Below, piece after piece: positions 1,257-12,900 of a stretch of 43,514 nt of DNA. The notes beneath the pieces were generated by a model. It did not search any database and was not told where the DNA came from. It was given only the letters and a program-made list of their open reading frames with translations. The translations under genes were made by a program, and so were the position numbers. Within the stretch, counting starts at the first letter, position 1; each line of letters starts with the position of its first letter. Source of the DNA: a virus (Duplodnaviria > Heunggongvirae > Uroviricota > Caudoviricetes); IMG/VR virus record IMGVR_UViG_3300005660_000003, positions 74,261 through 117,774 of that record. One strand, written 5' to 3'.

Positions 1257-1315
1257 TCTCCTGTGATTATTTTCTTTGACAATTTGGATAGAGATGCACT
1301 CATCTTCTTTTTAAA

Positions 1316-1382
1316 CGACCTAGACAGAATTCGAATCTGTATTTCCCCGCTAAGGGCGTTCTACCAATTGAACCACTAGGCC
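1316..1382 (-). tRNA. tRNA-like element with truncated anticodon arm (67 nt; pseudo-tRNA)
   Basis: GGCCTAG-TG-GTTC AATTGGTA GAAC-G-CCC TTAGC GGG-GAAAT-ACAGA TTCGAAT TCTGT-CTAGGTC-G. Acceptor, D and T arms are canonical; the anticodon arm is only 3 bp plus a 5-nt loop. Confidence 0.7.
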
Positions 1383-3259: not shown

Positions 3260-3662
3260 GAGCTGCTTTTATAGCAAAATAAATGCCTCTGGATTTAAAA
3301 AAGTTCTCATTTTTTCCAAAGTTATACTTACCTTTGTAAGTATCTCCCGTTGCTGTAGTAAGTACTACTCTTGTAAATCCCGCATGTGCTAGGACAAATT
3401 CTCCGTAGCAAGAATCTTCTGTTAACCCCTCAGAGTAAATTATATCAATTTCGTGCTTAAGAACTTTTGTAAATTCTTTTCTTGAAAGTACGCTATCTTC
3501 TTCACCAGTATCTGGATCAATAACAACTAACCCGCCAACAGGTCTGCCGTGTGTTATATCCAGAGTTATTCCTCTAGAATTTAAGTATTCTTGCACCCCT
3601 TTTGCTACAGCACGTAGTGGGTGTGGATTTCTTCGAGTTTTTCGTTCTTCAACAAGACTCAT
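3216..3662 (-). CDS. hypothetical protein (148 aa)
   Basis: ORF track; overlaps the tilS stop region. Confidence 0.6.
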   Translation of the reverse strand: MSLVEERKTRRNPHPLRAVAKGVQEYLNSRGITLDITHGRPVGGLVVIDPDTGEEDSVLSRKEFTKVLKHEIDIIYSEGLTEDSCYGEFVLAHAGFTRVVLTTATGDTYKGKYNFGKNENFFKSRGIYFAIKAALDGTCILEGFGSSV

Positions 3663-4212
3663 GACTACTTCCTTTGGTTAAGTTATAAGGGTTTATTCCA
3701 CAAGCCCGCATAAGCGGGATTAATTCATTACGAATTTTACTTCGTCTATTGCTAGATGTTAAATTGGTAGGATCATCAAGCCATATCAATCTGTGTCTTT
3801 GGGCGTACTCAACAATTTCTGACTTCTTAGCGTTAATAAAAGGGCGTAGGATATTACCATTTATTAGGGCAATTTGGCTTCCTCTCATTAAATAAGATTC
3901 TAAAGAATCATCTTCGTGGTGGGCGGTTAATACCAGTGTACCTTGAGTCTGCATTATGTTGTTACGCCACTCTGCCCAAGCATACTCCGTGTGCTCACTA
4001 CCATTATAAGTATAGGTCTTAAACACAATTCCCGCCCGCAAACAGCACACTTCAACTAAGTTGCGTGCCCGTTTACCATATGGGGTTCCGTGATCAAAAT
4101 GAATAACCTTAACCTTCTTTTTCCCACAGCGGGCAAAGTTTAGTAGGCTCATAGAGTCTACACCACCAGATACTGCTACAATGCAATTATTCGGGATTTT
4201 GCAGACTAACAT
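3649..4212 (-). CDS. tilS: tRNA(Ile)-lysidine synthetase, catalytic N-terminal domain only (187 aa)
   Basis: PP-loop VAVSGGVDS, HFDHG, TAHHEDD, ILRPF, WLDDPTN and RSKIRNELIP in TilS order; the C-terminal tRNA-binding domains are absent. Confidence 0.85.
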   Translation of the reverse strand: MLVCKIPNNCIVAVSGGVDSMSLLNFARCGKKKVKVIHFDHGTPYGKRARNLVEVCCLRAGIVFKTYTYNGSEHTEYAWAEWRNNIMQTQGTLVLTAHHEDDSLESYLMRGSQIALINGNILRPFINAKKSEIVEYAQRHRLIWLDDPTNLTSSNRRSKIRNELIPLMRACGINPYNLTKGSSHESC

Positions 4213-4501
4213 TCATCTCTTCTGTCAAAAGAAAAGTGGAAAAAGCATTTCTATCCTTAGTGGCTTGATGGTAACCCTCAACATACTTTAGGTTGTGGGC
4301 ATTGTCATACCCATCTTTCAAGCCTTATTCGTAAGTCTTGTTGCTCATTTTCTCGGACAATTGGTTGGCATAATCTGCCAACTGGTCCTCTAAAATTTCT
4401 GCACGGATAGACAATATCCTATTTTCGTTGTGGTCCAAAACAATTACGTGGGCAATAACAGTAAAAGCCGCAACACATAACGCTACAACAAGATTCTTCA
4501 T
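4187..4501 (-). pseudogene. N-terminally hydrophobic phage protein interrupted by one in-frame TAA (4325-4327)
   Basis: MKNLVVALCVAAFTVIAHVIVLD...SNKTYE*GLKDGYDNAHNLKYVEGYHQATKD...; the same frame stays open to the TAA at 4187-4189. Confidence 0.5.
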
Positions 4502-4692
4502 ACAAGTACCTCAAAATAGGTTTCAGAAAGATACATCATTAGGTCTGCAAAATTATCAAAAGACGCTACAGCGTCATACACCTCTTTAAATTGCGTCAGC
4601 AACACTTCTTTTGCCCAAACAAAAGGCGTGGCATCAAATGGTCCACCATAATATATTAAATGAACAAAGTTAACATACTCTTCGTGCGTCAA
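4498..4692 (-). CDS. hypothetical protein (64 aa)
   Basis: ORF track; GGAGAA RBS; ATGA overlap with the next gene. Confidence 0.6.
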   Translation of the reverse strand: MTHEEYVNFVHLIYYGGPFDATPFVWAKEVLLTQFKEVYDAVASFDNFADLMMYLSETYFEVLV

Positions 4693-4701
4693 GGTATTCT
4701 C

Positions 4702-4863
4702 CTAAACTTTCTGTACATAAACAAGGGTTACGTCTTCCAAAACTCTATATTTCCCGTCCGTGCCCCACCTCATTTCATTAATTTTGTGGTAATACGGTGT
4801 AGTAAGTGTTAAAACTTGTCCTTGAAACTTTCCAATTATATATAACACTCTATACTTACGCAA
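4702..4863 (-). CDS. hypothetical protein (53 aa)
   Basis: Hand-read: AGGAGAAGG RBS, TTG start, MRKYRVLYIIGKFQGQVLTLTTPYYHKINEMRWGTDGKYRVLEDVTLVYVQKV*. Confidence 0.5.
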   Translation of the reverse strand: MRKYRVLYIIGKFQGQVLTLTTPYYHKINEMRWGTDGKYRVLEDVTLVYVQKV

Positions 4864-4874
4864 GGACCTTCTCC

Positions 4875-5357
4875 TTAACCATTCTCAGAAATAAATGCGG
4901 GATATATTTTCTTGCGAACATACTCCACTCTTTTTCCTACGGTTTGTCTAATTTCCCCTAACTGTTTGGCAATGTCCGTTTCACCCATCCCTTTAAATTT
5001 GAGCTCAAACACTTTTCTTTACACGGGTGAGAGCATTGATAATAATTTATCCCTAAGCTCTAATATTTCAAGAGTGTGTGAAGGATTAACTTCTTCACCA
5101 ACATCTCTATATTCATGTGAGGTTATCCTAATCCTTTTCTTTTCACTTAGCCTGCCCATCGCCCATTGACAATTTCTACCTATGTAGGTAGTGATTGATA
5201 AATTTAAGACTTTGTTGCTTTTCAAAATTAGCAGGGCAACTTCTTGTACGAAGTCTTCAGCCTCAATGAATTTACTATAACCAAACTTACTATGGAAATA
5301 GCAGACTAGTCGCTCAAAATCTTCGTGAGCTAAGACTTCTCGTGGTGTTACATTCAT
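4875..5357 (-). pseudogene. ECF-like sigma factor (regions 2 and 4) interrupted by in-frame TAA at 5019-5021
   Basis: Region 2-like AEDFVQEVALLILK...TYIGRNCQW. After the stop the same frame continues LSPV*RKVFELKFKGMGETDIAKQLGEIRQTVGKRVEYVRKKI (region 4 HTH) to the TAA at 4875. Confidence 0.75.
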
Positions 5358-5363
5358 GTGATC

Positions 5364-5984
5364 TTAGGTCCATAAACTATTGTAGTATTTTGCGAACAAC
5401 CTTCTGCCTTCGTCTATCCTTGCTTGATAAGCCTTAACACCTTCTTCATCTCTCTTGTATGTGTGAAGTGGGCCGATTTCAAGGGTTGAATAATTCGTTC
5501 CCTCTTGCTTTTTAAACTCCATGTCAAAATTGCCAGAGCAAAAGTTCTTCTCCCAATCAATAGTGTCTGATGTAAAAGCAAATATCATCTCATTAAGAAT
5601 GTAGTCCCATTTTGGACCTAAATCTTCATAAAGATTTTCGTGCTTTTCTACTTCTGGCGTTCTAAGCTCAATCGGAAGGTCTTCGTTGTATACATGTGGC
5701 CGCCCACTTTTATCTTCTTTCAATACAAGAAGCATCTTTAGGATAATGGGAGATAGGGTATTATCCATATTCCAAATATCCCACCCATCAATTTTAATGT
5801 AGTTTATGTTTGGGTGGATGAAATCCAGAACCTTTTGGAGGCCAGTTGAAAAGGGCTTTAGTAGATTATGCAACCTTTCGATCTTGGGTTCATCGTAATC
5901 TATTTCTCGCCAAAAGAAGGCTGCTTCCAGTAGTGTATATGGTGAAAAATAGTGATTACGCGGCTTGTTGATGTAAATCTTCAA
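5364..5984 (-). CDS. phage hypothetical protein (206 aa)
   Basis: ORF track; WDIWNMDNTL...WDYILNEMIFAF...LFAKYYNSLW resembles a common phage hypothetical family (recalled, not searched). Confidence 0.75.
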   Translation of the reverse strand: MKIYINKPRNHYFSPYTLLEAAFFWREIDYDEPKIERLHNLLKPFSTGLQKVLDFIHPNINYIKIDGWDIWNMDNTLSPIILKMLLVLKEDKSGRPHVYNEDLPIELRTPEVEKHENLYEDLGPKWDYILNEMIFAFTSDTIDWEKNFCSGNFDMEFKKQEGTNYSTLEIGPLHTYKRDEEGVKAYQARIDEGRRLFAKYYNSLWT

Positions 5985-6247
5985 GGGTTACCTCCGGTAA
6001 ACTTTTTTATCTTTTCTTTTGCTTTTTCGGCCATTTTCTCTCTTAGCTCTTCTATTGAGTCTCGCTTAAAATCAATAAAGGTAAAAGATGAACCGTCTTG
6101 CAACTCCCCATCATCCGTATACAAGCCAGCTCCGCTGTAAGCAAAAGCCAATAAGGCTCTTAAATTATAGTTTTCCTTAGCTATATCTGCCACTTCATCA
6201 CCATCTGACTTTGCACATGGACGATCACCTATATCGTATCTTTGCAA
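5981..6247 (-). CDS. hypothetical protein (88 aa)
   Basis: ORF track; AAGGAG RBS directly after a 7-bp hairpin. Confidence 0.7.
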   Translation of the reverse strand: MQRYDIGDRPCAKSDGDEVADIAKENYNLRALLAFAYSGAGLYTDDGELQDGSSFTFIDFKRDSIEELREKMAEKAKEKIKKFTGGNP

Positions 6248-6309
6248 AAGTGTGCTCCTTTTAGCAGCGTAGCTGCTACTCTTTCTCGGACAAAAGTACT
6301 AAGATTAAA

Positions 6310-6382
6310 TAGCCGCTACAGGGAATGATCCTGTCCTTACTTTTTAGAAGAAAGTCGTGCTCATCCTATACACTAAGCGGCC
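6310..6382 (-). tRNA. tRNA-Arg(UCU)
   Basis: GGCCGCT/AGCGGCT acceptor, D arm GTGT..GCAC, anticodon arm ACTTT-CT TCT AA-AAAGT, T stem ACAGG/CCTGT with atypical loop ATCATTC; no encoded CCA. Confidence 0.8.
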
Positions 6383-6499
6383 AATGATTACTACCTTTTC
6401 AAGGCTTCACAGAAGCTAATGTTATAGAGGTACATCTCTACAATAGAGGAAAGTGTAACACCAATTAAAAACCACAGAGGTGTTGATGTGCCAATTTAA

Positions 6500-6584
6500 T
6501 ACCGTAGAGAAGATTCGAACTTCCAGAAGGGTTTCCCCACAAACCGTCTTAAGCGGTTTCGCTCAGCCATTGGCGTACTACGGC
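6500..6584 (-). tRNA. tRNA-Leu(UAA), class II
   Basis: GCCGTAG/CTACGGT acceptor, AACCG-CT TAA GA-CGGTT, long variable arm (GGG GAAA CCC), TTCGAAT loop, discriminator A73. Confidence 0.9.
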
Positions 6585-6606
6585 AATTTACTACAGAAAG
6601 AAAAAG

Positions 6607-6972
6607 ATGTTTAGAAAAGAATACACTAACGAAGATATAATTAAATATGCGAAAGACTCATTAAGCTGTGCTCAACTATTAGAAAAATTAGGATTGCGAC
6701 CAGCTGGCGGCAATTATGCTACAATGAAACGAAAATTAGCAAAATTAAATATTGATTGTTCACATTGGAGTGGTCAAGCTTGGAATAGGGGTAAAAAGTT
6801 AAAAGGATGGGAAAATTACACAACCACGGGATCAATTAAAAAACATTTAATTAAACACCTAGGTCACAAATGTGAAGATTGCAAATTAACTCAGTGGAAA
6901 AACCAACCCATTTCTCTTGAAATACACCACGTTAATGGTGATCGCAAGAAGAACATCCCGGTCGGCCATTGA
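6607..6972 (+). pseudogene. HNH endonuclease, C-terminally truncated
   Basis: CEDC...LEIHHVNGDRKKN, then stop after IPVGH; the usual closing NL-x-x-LC-x-x-CH segment is missing. It is the only plausible plus-strand gene in this block. Confidence 0.7.
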
Positions 6973-6987
6973 GCTACTTCCCGGAAC

Positions 6988-7236
6988 CTAACCTCTTAAC
7001 TCTGCTTCCTTTGAAACTGATAAAGAGATAAGTGTCATATATTTTCGTTTTTCTTCAAGCTCTAATGTATTCCAAAAAGAATCTGGGTCATCATCAAATT
7101 CTTCTATTTTTTGGTGTAACCAAATCAGTTCATTATCGCTGGTTAATGCTAGAGGTCTATCACACACCATAACAATTGGATCTGGGTAACCTAATTCTAC
7201 AGCTTTATTTTGCTGTTCTTGTGTAAATTCTATCAT
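6988..7236 (-). CDS. hypothetical protein, paralog of 8543-8788
   Basis: Shared pattern KA-x-ELG(Y/F)-x-D...MV-x-DRPL...EL...N(T/S)L...(K/R)E-x-x-LR. Confidence 0.7.
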   Translation of the reverse strand: MIEFTQEQQNKAVELGYPDPIVMVCDRPLALTSDNELIWLHQKIEEFDDDPDSFWNTLELEEKRKYMTLISLSVSKEAELRG

Positions 7237-7667
7237 TGTATTTTCTCACTTATTCGTAAATGACTTTTAAGATGGGTTATTGGAAAATAATCATCAGCAT
7301 TTCTTGGATTAAGACATTCTGTGAAATCGGTCACAGACAAATTTAGGTATACAAAGAGACTAACCTGAAATAGTGTTACCACTATTATCACCACTCTATA
7401 TTTCGTATTGGCCAATATAGCTAAAATGCCCACCACAAGTATCGTTGTACAGGCTTTTAAAACTATAAAGCTATCCACGCCATAGGTGTGCATGATAAAA
7501 CCCGATAATGGATTTTCTTCACGCTCTAGGATTTGGTCACTGTATACAAGGGTCATATATACATCAAAAGTGCTGACTAATCCTGTGATTAGTATACAGA
7601 GAAGGTGTGCTCCCTTTAGTCGCATGATAATAACCATCCTATAAATAAAACACTGGGCCAAAACCAA
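7233..7667 (-). CDS. membrane protein (about three hydrophobic helices, EENPL motif, DUF5658-like); start uncertain
   Basis: Hydrophobic segments flank DVYMTL...EENPL...DSFIVLK. Confidence 0.55.
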   Translation of the reverse strand: MVLAQCFIYRMVIIMRLKGAHLLCILITGLVSTFDVYMTLVYSDQILEREENPLSGFIMHTYGVDSFIVLKACTTILVVGILAILANTKYRVVIIVVTLFQVSLFVYLNLSVTDFTECLNPRNADDYFPITHLKSHLRISEKIQ

Positions 7668-7942
7668 ACAAAAGTTTTTCCTAACTTAAATGTGGCCTCC
7701 ATTTTTTCATCCTCAGTTGCTCCCACTTGGACTGACAAGCCCTTAAAGCACCTAAAGACTAGTATTAGGGCAAATGCTTTTAGGTATGAAATTTCAATTA
7801 TACCAATAGTTGCTACATGCCAATTCCACAGTTTCATTAGCACAAAAGGTTGGAAAAAGATTCCGAACAAAATGAGTGGTAAGCACAATAGATACACAAG
7901 TCCTCGTGCTTGATCATCTGTTAATTCAACTTTGTTACTCAA
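7616..7942 (-). CDS. small membrane protein
   Basis: ORF track; hydrophobic helices LVYLLCLPLILFGIFF and FVWFWPSVLFIGWLL. Confidence 0.65.
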   Translation of the reverse strand: MSNKVELTDDQARGLVYLLCLPLILFGIFFQPFVLMKLWNWHVATIGIIEISYLKAFALILVFRCFKGLSVQVGATEDEKMEATFKLGKTFVWFWPSVLFIGWLLSCD

Positions 7943-8006
7943 AGTAAACTCCTGAAATGATTACAAGATTCACAATGAATCCTAGTTCTGTAGATTGTAC
8001 ATAATC

Positions 8007-8540
8007 CTAATCAAGATTAGGACTTTCTCGGACAAGTGTTGACCCTAATTCCACACCATCTAACCCGGTTGAAAACATTCTTGAGTATTTATTCTTGCCA
8101 AAGAGAGCCTTCCTTACACACAAACTAATTAGTATTGCGATGTATTTGTCTACATCACTAATTTCAGTGGGCAGTTTTGATGAAAGAGATAGAACAACAT
8201 TTTGTGCCACCTCTTCAATTTCTACATTTGAAGAAATCGGACTATATCTTTTAGAAGATGTTATTCTCCTAAATACTAATGAATAAATCTCTCTGTTTAA
8301 AGAGACGGAAATTGGATTTATAAATCCATTTTTTACCCATCTTGCTTTACAGTTTTGACGACTACCGTCACCTTCAGTTTTTAGACATTCATCACGAAAT
8401 TTAATTGCGGCCTGAAGCGATTTATCATATGATCCGTACGTGGAATCTGGAAAACTTTTTTGATATTTAGGCTTTTTATTCACATAGCAAACACGCACCA
8501 ACCAATCCGTTTTCCTTCTATTGATTCCACTAATCTTCAA
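8007..8540 (-). CDS. protein with N-terminal AP2-like DNA-binding domain
   Basis: GINRRKTDWLVRV...KSFPDSTYG...SLQAAIKFRD resembles phage AP2 domains. Confidence 0.55.
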   Translation of the reverse strand: MKISGINRRKTDWLVRVCYVNKKPKYQKSFPDSTYGSYDKSLQAAIKFRDECLKTEGDGSRQNCKARWVKNGFINPISVSLNREIYSLVFRRITSSKRYSPISSNVEIEEVAQNVVLSLSSKLPTEISDVDKYIAILISLCVRKALFGKNKYSRMFSTGLDGVELGSTLVRESPNLD

Positions 8541-8542
8541 GT

Positions 8543-8788
8543 TTATCTCCTTAATTTAAGTTCTCTTGCGATTGTCATGATCACCACACTAAATAGGGTG
8601 ACTTGATCAAGAGGGTGAAGAGAGTTAAAAACTTCTACTGGAAAGTGAGCTCCAATTTTACATTTTCTACCCATGTCTTCAAGTTCTGATTGCGGGAACA
8701 TGATTAATGGCCGGTCTTGCACCATTGCCGCTTGGTCTGTAAAGCCAAGTTCTTCGGCTTTTATTGCTGCTCTTTCGAATATGTTCAA
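8543..8788 (-). CDS. hypothetical protein, paralog of 6988-7236
   Basis: See paralog; AAGGAG RBS directly after a 7-bp hairpin. Confidence 0.7.
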   Translation of the reverse strand: MNIFERAAIKAEELGFTDQAAMVQDRPLIMFPQSELEDMGRKCKIGAHFPVEVFNSLHPLDQVTLFSVVIMTIARELKLRR

Positions 8789-8883
8789 GATGTGCTCCTT
8801 TTAGTCGCACAGCGACTACTTTTTGGACCTCTGGTATTTTTGTAATCTCCGCCGACATAACTTCCATCACACTTTGGGTTCAA

Positions 8884-8966
8884 TAGGAATGGCTGGGATC
8901 GAACCAGCAAGCCTTTCGGCACCAATTTATGAGATTGGCGAGTTTAACCAATTCCTCCACATTCCC
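8884..8966 (-). tRNA. class II (long variable arm) tRNA with CAU anticodon and Leu-type body
   Basis: GGGAATG-TG-GAG GAATTGGTTAAA CTC-G-CCAAT CT CAT AA ATTGG-T GCC GAAA GGC TT-GCTGG TTCGATC CCAGC-CATTCCT-A. Confidence 0.9.
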
Positions 8967-12690: not shown

Positions 12691-12900
12691 CTACGTAGTT
12701 TTAGTCAAACTGTTGATGATCTTCTCTACGTCTTTTTCAAGCTTTACCAGCAAGCCAAAGGTATGATTGTCGTAAGACTTTACAACAATGGCCATTAGAT
12801 AGTGCATATCACAAACATCTGAAGGACCCCAACACGGAATCGAACCGTGTATTACCCTGATAACCTCAGGTTTCCTAACCTTTAGAAGATGGGGTCTCAC
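12691..12900 (-). CDS. hypothetical protein (69 aa)
   Basis: ORF track. Confidence 0.5.
   Translation of the reverse strand: MRPHLLKVRKPEVIRVIHGSIPCWGPSDVCDMHYLMAIVVKSYDNHTFGLLVKLEKDVEKIINSLTKTT

What the first reader, a model, noticed from the sequence alone, without database searches (positions are those of the whole stretch)
3649..8966. Minimal TilS plus a leucine-bodied tRNA carrying a CAU anticodon: possible phage miscoding or decoy-tRNA system
Seen: the tRNA at 8884-8966 has anticodon CAU but a class II body with a long variable stem (GCC-GAAA-GGC), A15 and U48, one unpaired nucleotide 3' of the variable stem, a Leu-style D loop and A73. A separate normal tRNA-Leu(UAA) is also present, and 4.7 kb away is a 187-aa TilS holding only the catalytic domain. 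Established: bacterial Met and Ile2 tRNAs are class I; bacterial LeuRS reads A73 and the D/variable-arm architecture and largely ignores the anticodon; TilS converts C34 of CAU to lysidine so the tRNA reads AUA, and its C-terminal domains contact the acceptor arm. Inference: this tRNA could be charged with Leu and decode AUG, or AUA after modification by a less selective mini-TilS. That would mean mistranslation of host proteins, conditional recoding, or a decoy/replacement for host anticodon nucleases. Caveat: ATA codons here occupy expected Ile positions (ERCC4 IIVDTRE, HNH WHIDHI), which argues against full reassignment.
Basis: partly seen in the sequence, partly recalled or inferred. Interest (0 to 1): 0.82.

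Follow-up and report, generated by a model that had tools for sequence, protein, structure and literature searches.

The report
Phage AUA-decoding kit: mini-TilS plus leucine-shaped tRNA
A large uncultured phage carries a one-domain version of the enzyme TilS together with a CAU-anticodon tRNA built on a leucine-type long-arm body; the pair most likely lets the phage read its very frequent isoleucine codon AUA, and the same odd pairing recurs in unrelated phages although I found no paper describing it.

Summary
Window 8884-8966 (-) is a well-formed 83-nt class II tRNA with anticodon CAU, and 3649-4212 (-) encodes a 187-aa TilS with the catalytic N-domain only.

It is neither an error nor a private mutation. 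An independent assembly gives the same sequence. Eight other IMG/VR phage records carry Leu-type long-arm CAU tRNAs with compensatory stem changes. Six of these eight also encode an N-domain-only TilS, and where I placed both genes they lie 0.06-3.3 kb apart. None of 44 records with other long-arm CAU tRNAs has a TilS above cut-off (p about 1e-6).

Conversely, the 80 best of more than 411 IMG/VR TilS loci all have short frames. Where a CAU tRNA lies nearby it is usually an ordinary Ile2-like class I tRNA, often 26-106 bp away. The class II partner appeared at least four times on the TilS tree.

In this phage ATA is 39% of Ile codons, and ATA codons sit at Ile/Val-type positions, not Leu-type ones.

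Best reading (about 0.6): a phage AUA-to-Ile decoding cassette whose tRNA-Ile2 was rebuilt on a Leu scaffold. Miscoding with Leu is not excluded (about 0.13).

This scan noted similar cases before on other DNA (e1-1608211, e1-1957129, e1-281815).

The parts
8884..8966 (-). Class II (Leu-type body) tRNA with anticodon CAU. It has G1.U72, A73, the variable hairpin GCC-GAAA-GGC and no encoded CCA. Proposed substrate of the phage TilS and reader of AUA.
   Evidence: structure; Leu-type body; identical in a second assembly; homologous family linked to mini-TilS.
3649..4212 (-). N-domain-only TilS (tRNA-Ile lysidine synthetase catalytic PP-loop domain), 187 aa. An alternative start gives 167 aa.
   Evidence: PF01171 1e-24; TIGR02432 97.9 bits against a cut-off of 93.6; SGGxDS and TAHHxDD motifs invariant in 15 homologues; aligns only to the N-domain of 1wy5, 1ni5, 3a2k; family of 174-191 aa relatives, P0002-P0015.
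6499..6585 (-). tRNA-Leu(UAA). Context: the normal Leu tRNA of the same tRNA island, also with G1.U72 and A73.
   Evidence: 49.1 bits with the phage Leu model.
6309..6383 (-). tRNA-Arg(UCU). Context: same island, G1.U72 and A73, with an atypical T loop AUCAUUC.
   Evidence: Not found by Rfam at E<=1.
6607..6972 (+). HNH homing-endonuclease-like gene lying between the tRNA genes (context).
   Evidence: phrog_10822, HNH endonuclease, 9.2e-21.

Best explanation
The two genes form a phage AUA-decoding cassette.

Proposed mechanism:
1. The phage is AT-rich (37% G+C) and uses ATA for 39% of its isoleucine codons.
2. It makes its own CAU-anticodon tRNA and its own stripped-down TilS.
3. The TilS N-domain adenylates C34 and replaces the C2 oxygen with lysine, giving lysidine. 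This is the established TilS chemistry; that it happens on this tRNA is inferred.
4. The tRNA then pairs with AUA instead of AUG.
5. Isoleucyl-tRNA synthetase accepts it through k2C34-A35-U36-t6A37-A38 and A73. This step is also inferred.

The tRNA is not a canonical tRNA-Ile2. Its D arm and variable arm are of the class II leucine type. I read this as scaffold replacement. The one-domain TilS has lost the domains that inspect the tRNA body and acceptor stem, so it probably reads little beyond the anticodon arm. A CAU tRNA on almost any body can then serve as its partner.

Shown here: the anatomy of both genes, the recurrent linkage between them, the interchange of class I and class II partners, and the Ile-like placement of ATA codons.

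Inferred: lysidine formation on this tRNA, charging by IleRS and not LeuRS, and the reason for the class II body.
For: 1. Linkage.
- Of 8 other IMG/VR records with a Leu-type long-arm CAU tRNA, 6 encode a TilS N-domain in a 206-229 aa frame. Where I placed both genes (G045, G047, G048, G050, G051) they lie 58 bp to 3.3 kb apart; the distance in G054 was not worked out.
- The two records without a TilS are 2% and 28% fragments.
- Among 44 records with other long-arm CAU tRNAs, none has a TilS above cut-off. Fisher p = 1.4e-6.

2. The reverse test.
- The 80 best of more than 411 IMG/VR TilS loci all have short open frames of 190-298 aa.
- 24 of them have a CAU tRNA within 10 kb.
- Of the 21 distinct CAU tRNA sequences, 12 lie 26-106 bp from the gene. 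Most resemble canonical tRNA-Ile2 (GGGCCxxUAGCUCAAUAGGUUAGAGCA...CUCAUAA).

3. Partner swapping.
- On the TilS tree the class II partner needs at least 4 changes.
- Sister TilS genes have class I partners: L166 against L165/L167, and L240 against L176/L186/L228.
- L240 (class I) and L186 (class II) keep the same acceptor stem and T arm.

4. A functional tRNA family. In 8 aligned members, 14 of 17 pairs show compensatory changes and A73 is invariant.

5. Codon evidence.
- ATA codons align in relatives to I 0.42, V 0.22, L 0.14. ATT gives 0.48, 0.17, 0.12. Leu codons give L 0.47-0.76.
- ATA occurs 30.9 times per 1000 codons against 19.3 for ATG.
- The other four phage tRNAs read UUA, CUA, AGA and GGA. 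UUA and AGA are the commonest codons of their families; GGA is a close second and CUA third.

6. Leu identity looks eroded.
- A at position 20a is an E. coli LeuRS determinant (PMC9976931).
- It is present in 33 of 38 phage Leu tRNAs but in only 1 of 6 class II CAU tRNAs.
- The exact D loop GGAAUUGGUUAAAC occurs in IMG/VR only with non-Leu anticodons: CAU, UUG and GUU. The GUU member has G73, which is an anti-determinant for E. coli LeuRS (PMC9976931) and, from my own knowledge, an Asn determinant.
Against:
- The body scores higher on a Leu model than the phage's own tRNA-Leu(UAA). It keeps A73, A15-U48 and G18G19. Bacterial LeuRS does not read the anticodon (PMC9976931), so LeuRS may charge it at least in part.
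- The closest relatives of this phage (mini-TilS 55-60% identical) show no CAU tRNA in the roughly 29-31 kb read around their TilS. The enzyme therefore does not need this tRNA and may act on host tRNA-Ile2.
- The codon test shows where ATA codons sit in evolution, not what is inserted today.
- Published work reports that TilS enzymes carry at least one extra domain, and that a variant lacking CTD2 is much less active (PMC11947777). The activity of an N-domain-only enzyme is untested.
Confidence: 0.6

Rival explanations
1. Leu-charged missense tRNA. LeuRS ignores the anticodon and charges the Leu-type body. AUA (after lysidine) or AUG (unmodified) is then read, fully or partly, as leucine. This would be deliberate or tolerated statistical mistranslation during infection.
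For: - The body is strongly Leu-type: 73.1 bits on the phage Leu model and all 8 nearest neighbours are Leu.
- A73, A15-U48 and G18G19 are retained. These are E. coli LeuRS determinants, and the anticodon is not one (PMC9976931).
- The same scaffold also carries UUG and GUU anticodons in other phages.
- From my own knowledge, nematode class II tRNAs with Ile or Gly anticodons are leucylated in vitro.
Against: - ATA and ATG codons sit at Ile-type and Met-type positions, with no shift towards Leu.
- ATA is 3.1% of all codons, so the load of substitutions would be heavy.
- The tight link to TilS, and the interchange with ordinary Ile2-like tRNAs at the same locus, argue that the function is the same as theirs.
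- A20a is not conserved.
- The GUU member has G73, an anti-determinant for LeuRS (PMC9976931).
Confidence: 0.13
2. Body swap as counter-defence. The tRNA still supplies AUA (or AUG) decoding, but its D and variable arms were replaced so that a host tRNA-targeting nuclease or modifier that recognises the normal tRNA-Ile2 or tRNA-Met body cannot touch it. This concerns why the body is class II and is compatible with the best explanation.
For: - The class II form arose repeatedly next to near-identical TilS genes while the acceptor and T arms were kept.
- An RNA ligase gene (PF09414, 31.1 bits) lies about 3 kb beyond TilS.
- From my own knowledge, phage tRNAs are known to rescue translation from anticodon nucleases (phage T5; PARIS and retron systems).
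Against: - No defence system that targets tRNA-Ile2 was identified here.
- The host is unknown; there is only an unchecked Planctomycetota lead from e1-5435156.
- Most mini-TilS phages keep a class I partner.
Confidence: 0.15
3. Plain elongator or initiator tRNA-Met on an odd scaffold. MetRS charges it through CAU and it reads AUG. The TilS acts only on host tRNA-Ile2.
For: - CAU is the dominant MetRS determinant, and unmodified tRNA-Ile2 accepts Met (PMC9976931, PMC12514573).
- Close relatives have the TilS with no CAU tRNA in the stretches read.
- Long-arm CAU tRNAs with initiator-like C1xA72 ends are common in phages without TilS.
Against: - The Leu-type subfamily specifically co-occurs with and is linked to TilS (6 of 8 against 0 of 44).
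- The phage's other tRNAs all supplement A-ending codons.
- ATG has a single codon and is rarer than ATA here.
- This tRNA has G1.U72, not the initiator mismatch.
Confidence: 0.08
4. Private CAA-to-CAU mutation, sequencing error or pseudogene of a tRNA-Leu(CAA).
For: CAU is one substitution from the Leu anticodon CAA. No close orthologue of this exact tRNA was found in IMG/VR or in GenBank phages.
Against: - The sequence is identical in an independent assembly.
- A diverged family of Leu-type class II CAU tRNAs shows compensatory changes and TilS linkage.
- The D-loop variant it carries is never found with a Leu anticodon in IMG/VR.
Confidence: 0.02

Closest known systems
Bacterial tRNA-Ile2(CAU) with TilS, and phage-borne copies of tRNA-Ile(CAU) such as that of phage T4 (own knowledge; T4 relies on the host TilS)
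   Same: CAU anticodon in a CUCAUAA loop with A37, A38 and A73. It would supplement the AUA codon in an AT-rich phage. It is paired with a lysidine synthetase.
   Different: The body is class II Leu-type instead of class I: 37.2 bits on the TilS-adjacent class I model against 73.1 bits on the Leu model. The acceptor stem has G1.U72. The phage brings its own TilS.
TilS type I (NTD+CTD1+CTD2; E. coli, G. kaustophilus, B. cenocepacia) and type II (NTD+CTD1; A. aeolicus), as described in PMC11947777
   Same: The PP-loop N-domain has SGGxDS, TAHHxDD, RP, DPxN and RNxIR motifs. It scores above the TIGR02432 cut-off.
   Different: It ends about 20 residues after the N-domain, with no CTD1 or CTD2. 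[quoted passage not shown] The downstream 148-aa ORF shows no sign of being a detached CTD.
Pseudomonas jumbo phage PA5oct gp064, annotated as tRNA(Ile)-lysidine synthetase (NC_071039.1)
   Same: A 203-aa N-domain-only TilS, 33% identical to this one, in a cultured AT-rich jumbo phage with its own tRNA genes.
   Different: The CAU tRNA annotated within 8 kb of it is a 74-nt class I tRNA. I found no functional study of it in the papers searched.
Nematode nev-tRNAs: class II Leu-bodied tRNAs with Ile(UAU) or Gly(CCC) anticodons (own knowledge)
   Same: A leucine-type class II body carrying a non-leucine anticodon of the AUN box.
   Different: Those are eukaryotic, are leucylated in vitro and have no modifying enzyme linked to them. 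Here the tRNA is linked to TilS, and the codon evidence favours Ile.
Allo-tRNAs of Mukai et al. 2017
   Same: Non-standard long-arm tRNAs with unexpected anticodons, found in bacterial and phage metagenomes.
   Different: From my own knowledge, allo-tRNAs have 8/4 or 9/3 acceptor/T geometry and Ser identity. This tRNA has the standard 7/5 geometry and a Leu-type D arm.

Membership tests
tRNA (Rfam RF00005) | Cloverleaf with a score above the gathering threshold | tested here: met
   53.5 bits against 29. ARAGORN calls it. The minimum-energy fold is a cloverleaf.
Bacterial class II tRNA-Leu | Long variable arm with its own stem, and a Leu-type D arm (3-bp stem, A14 A15, G18G19 placement) | tested here: met
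   73.1 bits on a model of 39 phage Leu tRNAs. The 8 nearest neighbours are all Leu.
Bacterial class II tRNA-Leu | Leucine anticodon (NAG or NAA) | tested here: not met
   The anticodon is CAU in a 7-nt loop CUCAUAA on a perfect 5-bp stem.
Bacterial class II tRNA-Leu | E. coli LeuRS determinants: A73, A15-U48, G18G19 and A20a (PMC9976931) | tested here: inconclusive
   A73, A15, U48 and G18G19 are present. Position 20a is U here. It is A in only 1 of 6 class II CAU tRNAs against 33 of 38 phage Leu tRNAs. The host LeuRS rules are unknown.
Bacterial class II tRNA-Leu | Charged with leucine by LeuRS | not testable with these tools
   Needs an aminoacylation assay.
tRNA-Ile2 (lysidine tRNA) | CAU anticodon with U33, A37, A38 and A73 | tested here: met
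   Read from the sequence. The loop and A73 are the same as in all 14 TilS-adjacent class I CAU tRNAs.
tRNA-Ile2 (lysidine tRNA) | Class I body resembling canonical tRNA-Ile2 | tested here: not met
   83 nt with a 13-nt variable region. 37.2 bits on the class I TilS-adjacent model.
tRNA-Ile2 (lysidine tRNA) | Genetic association with tilS | tested here: met
   4.7 kb from the mini-TilS in this window. 6 of 8 homologous tRNAs in other phage records come with a mini-TilS, against 0 of 44 controls.
tRNA-Ile2 (lysidine tRNA) | C34 converted to lysidine; reads AUA as Ile | not testable with these tools
   Indirect only: ATA codons behave as Ile codons and are very frequent.
TilS (tRNA-Ile lysidine synthetase) | PP-loop N-domain matching the TilS-specific model above its cut-off | tested here: met
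   TIGR02432 97.9 bits against 93.6. SGGxDS is invariant. The best solved-structure matches are TilS N-domains.
TilS (tRNA-Ile lysidine synthetase) | At least one C-terminal tRNA-binding domain (CTD1, with or without CTD2), as in types I and II (PMC11947777) | tested here: not met
   The protein ends at residue 187. The N-domain model covers residues 10-166. There is no Pfam hit beyond it. The neighbouring ORF gives no CTD signal. All 80 best IMG/VR relatives have frames of 190-298 aa.
TilS (tRNA-Ile lysidine synthetase) | Lysidine-forming activity | not testable with these tools
   Needs an enzyme assay.

The most novel reading that the evidence does not exclude
Phages maintain a family of leucine-scaffold class II tRNAs that carry non-leucine anticodons: CAU here, and UUG and GUU elsewhere. 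At least the CAU member would have dual identity. After lysidinylation by a body-blind one-domain TilS it would be charged by both IleRS and LeuRS, so that infected cells read AUA ambiguously as Ile or Leu. This would be a programmed change of decoding by the phage, not mere codon supplementation.
Probability: 0.12. Interest if true: 0.9.

Novelty: new variant of a known kind. Interest (0 to 1): 0.62.

Why it matters
In bacteria, long-arm (class II) bodies are held to be reserved for Leu, Ser, Tyr and Sec tRNAs. TilS is thought to need extra domains to tell tRNA-Ile2 from tRNA-Met.

Here a widespread phage enzyme has none of those domains. It is paired, in different phages, either with an ordinary Ile2-like tRNA or with a Leu-shaped one.

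This gives a natural minimal system for three questions:
- How does lysidine synthetase recognise its substrate?
- How far can the anticodon loop alone set isoleucine identity?
- Can a tRNA change amino-acid identity by changing its anticodon on a foreign scaffold?

It also matters for annotation. Such genes are currently called tRNA-Met.

Tried and rejected
- **No close relatives of the locus.** blastn of the region and of the tRNA against GenBank phages gave no match or only weak tRNA-Leu matches. There was no match in E. coli genomes. An exact 28-mer and a strict anticodon-free pattern found nothing in IMG/VR. A single-sequence TilS search of IMG/VR found nothing.
- **Relatives with 55-60% identical mini-TilS** (L002-L008, L137-L140). 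They show synteny downstream of TilS, but the tRNA island differs. It holds Tyr, Leu(UAA), Lys and a CUA suppressor, and no CAU tRNA in the roughly 29-31 kb read. An orthologue test of CAU against CAA at this locus was therefore not possible.
- **Reads.** Read-level variation and expression could not be checked, and read laying was not used.
- **Split-TilS idea.** I asked whether the 148-aa ORF downstream is a detached CTD. It has no Pfam family and no informative Atlas neighbour. The AlphaFold model has mean pLDDT 58, too poor to search with, so the idea was dropped for lack of support.
- **Recent duplication.** The CAU tRNA is not a recent copy of the co-resident tRNA-Leu(UAA): 50 of 83 bases are identical.
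- **U(-1)-A73 extra pair.** ARAGORN draws this pair, but it is not conserved in the family.
- **Variable arm as a TilS recognition handle.** This is weakened, because closely related mini-TilS genes sit next to class I partners.
- **Bacterial genomes.** A scan of 185,579 species with the Leu-type class II CAU pattern gave one real tRNA, on a phage-like 291-kb contig. The other three hits were not tRNAs.
- **Not used.** The metagenome-contig scan and complex prediction.

Full report
**What is there**

The window is the right-hand 43.5 kb of a 117.8-kb IMG/VR phage record, estimated 67% complete, with 37% G+C.

ARAGORN and Rfam both find a tRNA at 8884-8966 on the minus strand, at 53.5 bits against a gathering score of 29. 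The sequence, ARAGORN's drawing and an unconstrained minimum-energy fold agree on the structure:
- 7-bp acceptor stem with a G1.U72 wobble, A73, and no encoded CCA
- 3-bp D stem with loop GAAUUGGUUAAA
- perfect 5-bp anticodon stem with loop CUCAUAA
- 13-nt variable region U-GCC-GAAA-GGC-UU
- normal T arm

**The body is leucine-type**

With the anticodon masked, its eight nearest neighbours among 569 phage tRNAs are all tRNA-Leu. Every near-full-length blastn hit in GenBank phages is annotated tRNA-Leu.

A covariance model built from 39 phage Leu tRNAs scores it 73.1 bits. That is above the window's own tRNA-Leu(UAA) at 49.1 bits. A model built from 14 TilS-adjacent class I CAU tRNAs gives 37.2 bits.

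**The enzyme**

The ORF at 3649-4212(-) encodes 187 aa. It passes the curated cut-off of the TilS N-domain model (TIGR02432, 97.9 against 93.6 bits) and matches PF01171 at 1e-24.

A profile of 15 homologues keeps the SGGxDS PP-loop and the TAHHxDD, RP, DPxN and RNxIR motifs. It aligns only to the N-domains of the three solved TilS structures.

Nothing follows the N-domain, and the next ORF gives no sign of being a detached C-terminal domain.

[quoted passage not shown] Type II has CTD1 and type I has CTD1 plus CTD2. It also reports that deleting CTD2 lowers both activity and discrimination (PMC11947777). An N-domain-only form is therefore outside the described types.

Such genes are already annotated as TilS in cultured phages. 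An example is the 203-aa gp064 of Pseudomonas phage PA5oct. TilS has also been mentioned in passing in pelagimyophages (PMC7029224).

**Not an error or a private mutation**

An independently assembled ENA contig is 99.99% identical over 10.8 kb and carries the identical tRNA.

A pattern for a Leu-type D loop, a CAU loop and a long arm found seven IMG/VR loci. An anticodon-free D-loop pattern added one more.

Eight aligned members, including this one, show compensatory changes in 14 of 17 stem pairs. A73 is invariant among them, and five have G1.U72.

The same pattern run over one genome for each of 185,579 prokaryote species gave a single real tRNA. It lies on a phage-like 291-kb contig. The type is therefore essentially viral.

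**The pairing with TilS**

Of the eight other phage records with a Leu-type class II CAU tRNA, six encode a TilS N-domain in a 206-229 aa frame. The two without one are 2% and 28% fragments.

In the five records where I placed both genes, the distances are about 58 bp (G045), about 150 bp (G047, G048) and 2-3.3 kb (G050, G051). In this window the distance is 4.7 kb.

Of 44 such records with other body types, none has a TilS above cut-off. Fisher p = 1.4e-6.

**The reverse view**

A profile search found more than 411 TilS loci in IMG/VR. The best 80 all have short frames of 190-298 aa.

Twenty-four of them have a CAU tRNA within 10 kb. Of the 21 distinct CAU tRNA sequences, 12 lie 26-106 bp from the gene. 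Most look like ordinary tRNA-Ile2, and five of the 24 loci carry long-arm forms.

On a maximum-likelihood tree of the enzymes, the class II partner needs at least four changes. Well-supported sister enzymes have class I partners.

In one near-identical group of enzymes, the class I tRNA (L240) and a class II tRNA (L186) share the same acceptor stem and T arm. They differ in the D arm, anticodon stem and variable arm.

I conclude three things:
- The mini-TilS and a phage CAU tRNA form a cassette.
- The enzyme is not specialised for the long arm.
- The class II tRNA is a functional replacement for a tRNA-Ile2.

**What the codons say**

ATA makes up 39% of Ile codons, at 30.9 per 1000 codons. ATG occurs 19.3 times per 1000.

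The other four phage tRNAs read UUA, CUA, AGA and GGA. UUA and AGA are the commonest codons of their families, GGA is a close second and CUA is third. From my own knowledge this resembles the T4 tRNA set, which includes Ile(CAU).

I compared 13 syntenic genes with three groups of relatives.

| Codon(s) in this phage | Aligned residue in relatives |
|---|---|
| ATA | I 0.42, V 0.22, L 0.14 |
| ATT | I 0.48, V 0.17, L 0.12 |
| Leu codons | L 0.47-0.76 |
| ATG | M 0.45, L 0.25 |

There is no sign that ATA or ATG has drifted towards leucine positions.

**Which amino acid?**

This cannot be computed.

For Ile:
- the codon evidence above
- the locus equivalence with Ile2-like tRNAs
- the full set of anticodon-loop determinants plus A73 (PMC9976931)

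Signs that Leu identity is eroding:
- A20a, an E. coli LeuRS determinant (PMC9976931), is present in 33 of 38 phage Leu tRNAs but in 1 of 6 class II CAU tRNAs.
- The exact D loop of this tRNA is found in IMG/VR only with non-Leu anticodons (CAU, UUG, GUU).
- The GUU member carries G73, which is an anti-determinant for LeuRS (PMC9976931) and, from my own knowledge, an Asn determinant.

For Leu:
- The body remains strongly Leu-like.
- It keeps A73, A15-U48 and G18G19.
- LeuRS does not read anticodons (PMC9976931).

A15 and U48 are weaker evidence than they seem. The TilS-adjacent class I CAU tRNAs carry A15 in all 14 sequences and U48 in their consensus.

**Limits**

- The closest relatives of this phage have the mini-TilS but no CAU tRNA in the roughly 29-31 kb I could read. 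The enzyme may therefore also, or instead, act on host tRNA-Ile2.
- The host is unknown.
- I found no paper describing an N-domain-only TilS or a class II tRNA(CAU) in phages. The library searched is incomplete.

**Verdict**

Most likely this is a phage AUA-to-Ile decoding cassette. It has two unusual parts: a one-domain TilS and a tRNA-Ile2 rebuilt on a leucine scaffold.

Earlier reports of this scan reached similar conclusions on other phages (e1-1608211, e1-1957129, e1-281815).
- the specific and significant link between the Leu-type subfamily and mini-TilS
- the repeated interchange of class I and class II partners
- the codon test

Noticed in passing
window 4325-4327 and 5019-5021 (minus strand): Two in-frame TAA codons interrupt genes that are intact in relatives. 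The first is ...NKTYE*GLKDG..., where a relative has ...RKTYEDGLRDG.... The second lies in a stretch that looks to me like sigma-70 region 4 (...LSPV*RKVFELKF...). Both are identical in independent assemblies. Relatives carry a tRNA with a CUA (amber suppressor) anticodon at L137:2995-3066. This was also flagged by another first-reader note (e1-5418095).
   Followed up: partly
window 1315-1382 (-) and 12822-12895 (-): Two tRNA-like elements that ARAGORN and Rfam miss. They score 29.9 and 16-23 bits on my phage tRNA models. They fold as cloverleaves with normal acceptor, D and T arms, but the 'anticodon' loop has only 4-5 nt.
   Followed up: partly
window 6309-6383, 6499-6585 and 8884-8966 (-); also L010 and L014 (record G001), L149-L154 and L247: All three tRNAs of this island have a G1.U72 wobble pair at the top of the acceptor stem, together with A73. 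So do tRNAs of a distant mini-TilS phage (G001) and several members of the class II CAU family. It is a lineage trait of unknown meaning. The tRNA-Arg(UCU) here also has a non-canonical T loop, AUCAUUC.
   Followed up: partly
L245:10507-10597; L246:6342-6427; L249:4154-4239; L013:1501-1585: Other phages carry class II bodies with further non-class-II anticodons. The same Leu-type D loop GGAAUUGGUUAAAC occurs with GUU (Asn, with G73) and with UUG (Gln). A D arm that looks Ser-type to me occurs with UGU (Thr) in G001. These suggest a broader phage habit of putting other anticodons on long-arm scaffolds.
   Followed up: partly
L018-L097 (IMG/VR loci): Long-arm CAU tRNAs of 80-93 nt are very common in phages: 61 in 80 loci. 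Many have an initiator-like C1xA72 end, and they are not associated with TilS. Several unrelated bodies share the variable hairpin UGCCGAAAGGC seen here (L030, L031, L034).
   Followed up: partly
G000 just left of the window start (L143:5367-6647, about 3 kb beyond TilS): A 427-aa protein matches RNA ligase (PF09414, 31.1 bits, cut-off 27). It could be a tRNA-repair function in the same translation-support region.
   Followed up: partly
window 6607-6972 (+): An HNH homing-endonuclease-like gene sits between the tRNA genes on the opposite strand. In L045, a 227-aa ORF on the opposite strand that looked to me like a homing endonuclease (not scanned) lies about 0.7 kb upstream of the mini-TilS.
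   Followed up: no
L002, L005 and L007 (relatives), directly downstream of TilS: Relatives have a 385-aa gene (weak AAA/nSTAND3 hits) between TilS and the 148-aa ORF homologue. That gene is absent from this phage. Upstream they carry PspA, an ion channel and a peptidase M50 that this phage lacks. The TilS therefore sits at the edge of a hypervariable region.
   Followed up: no
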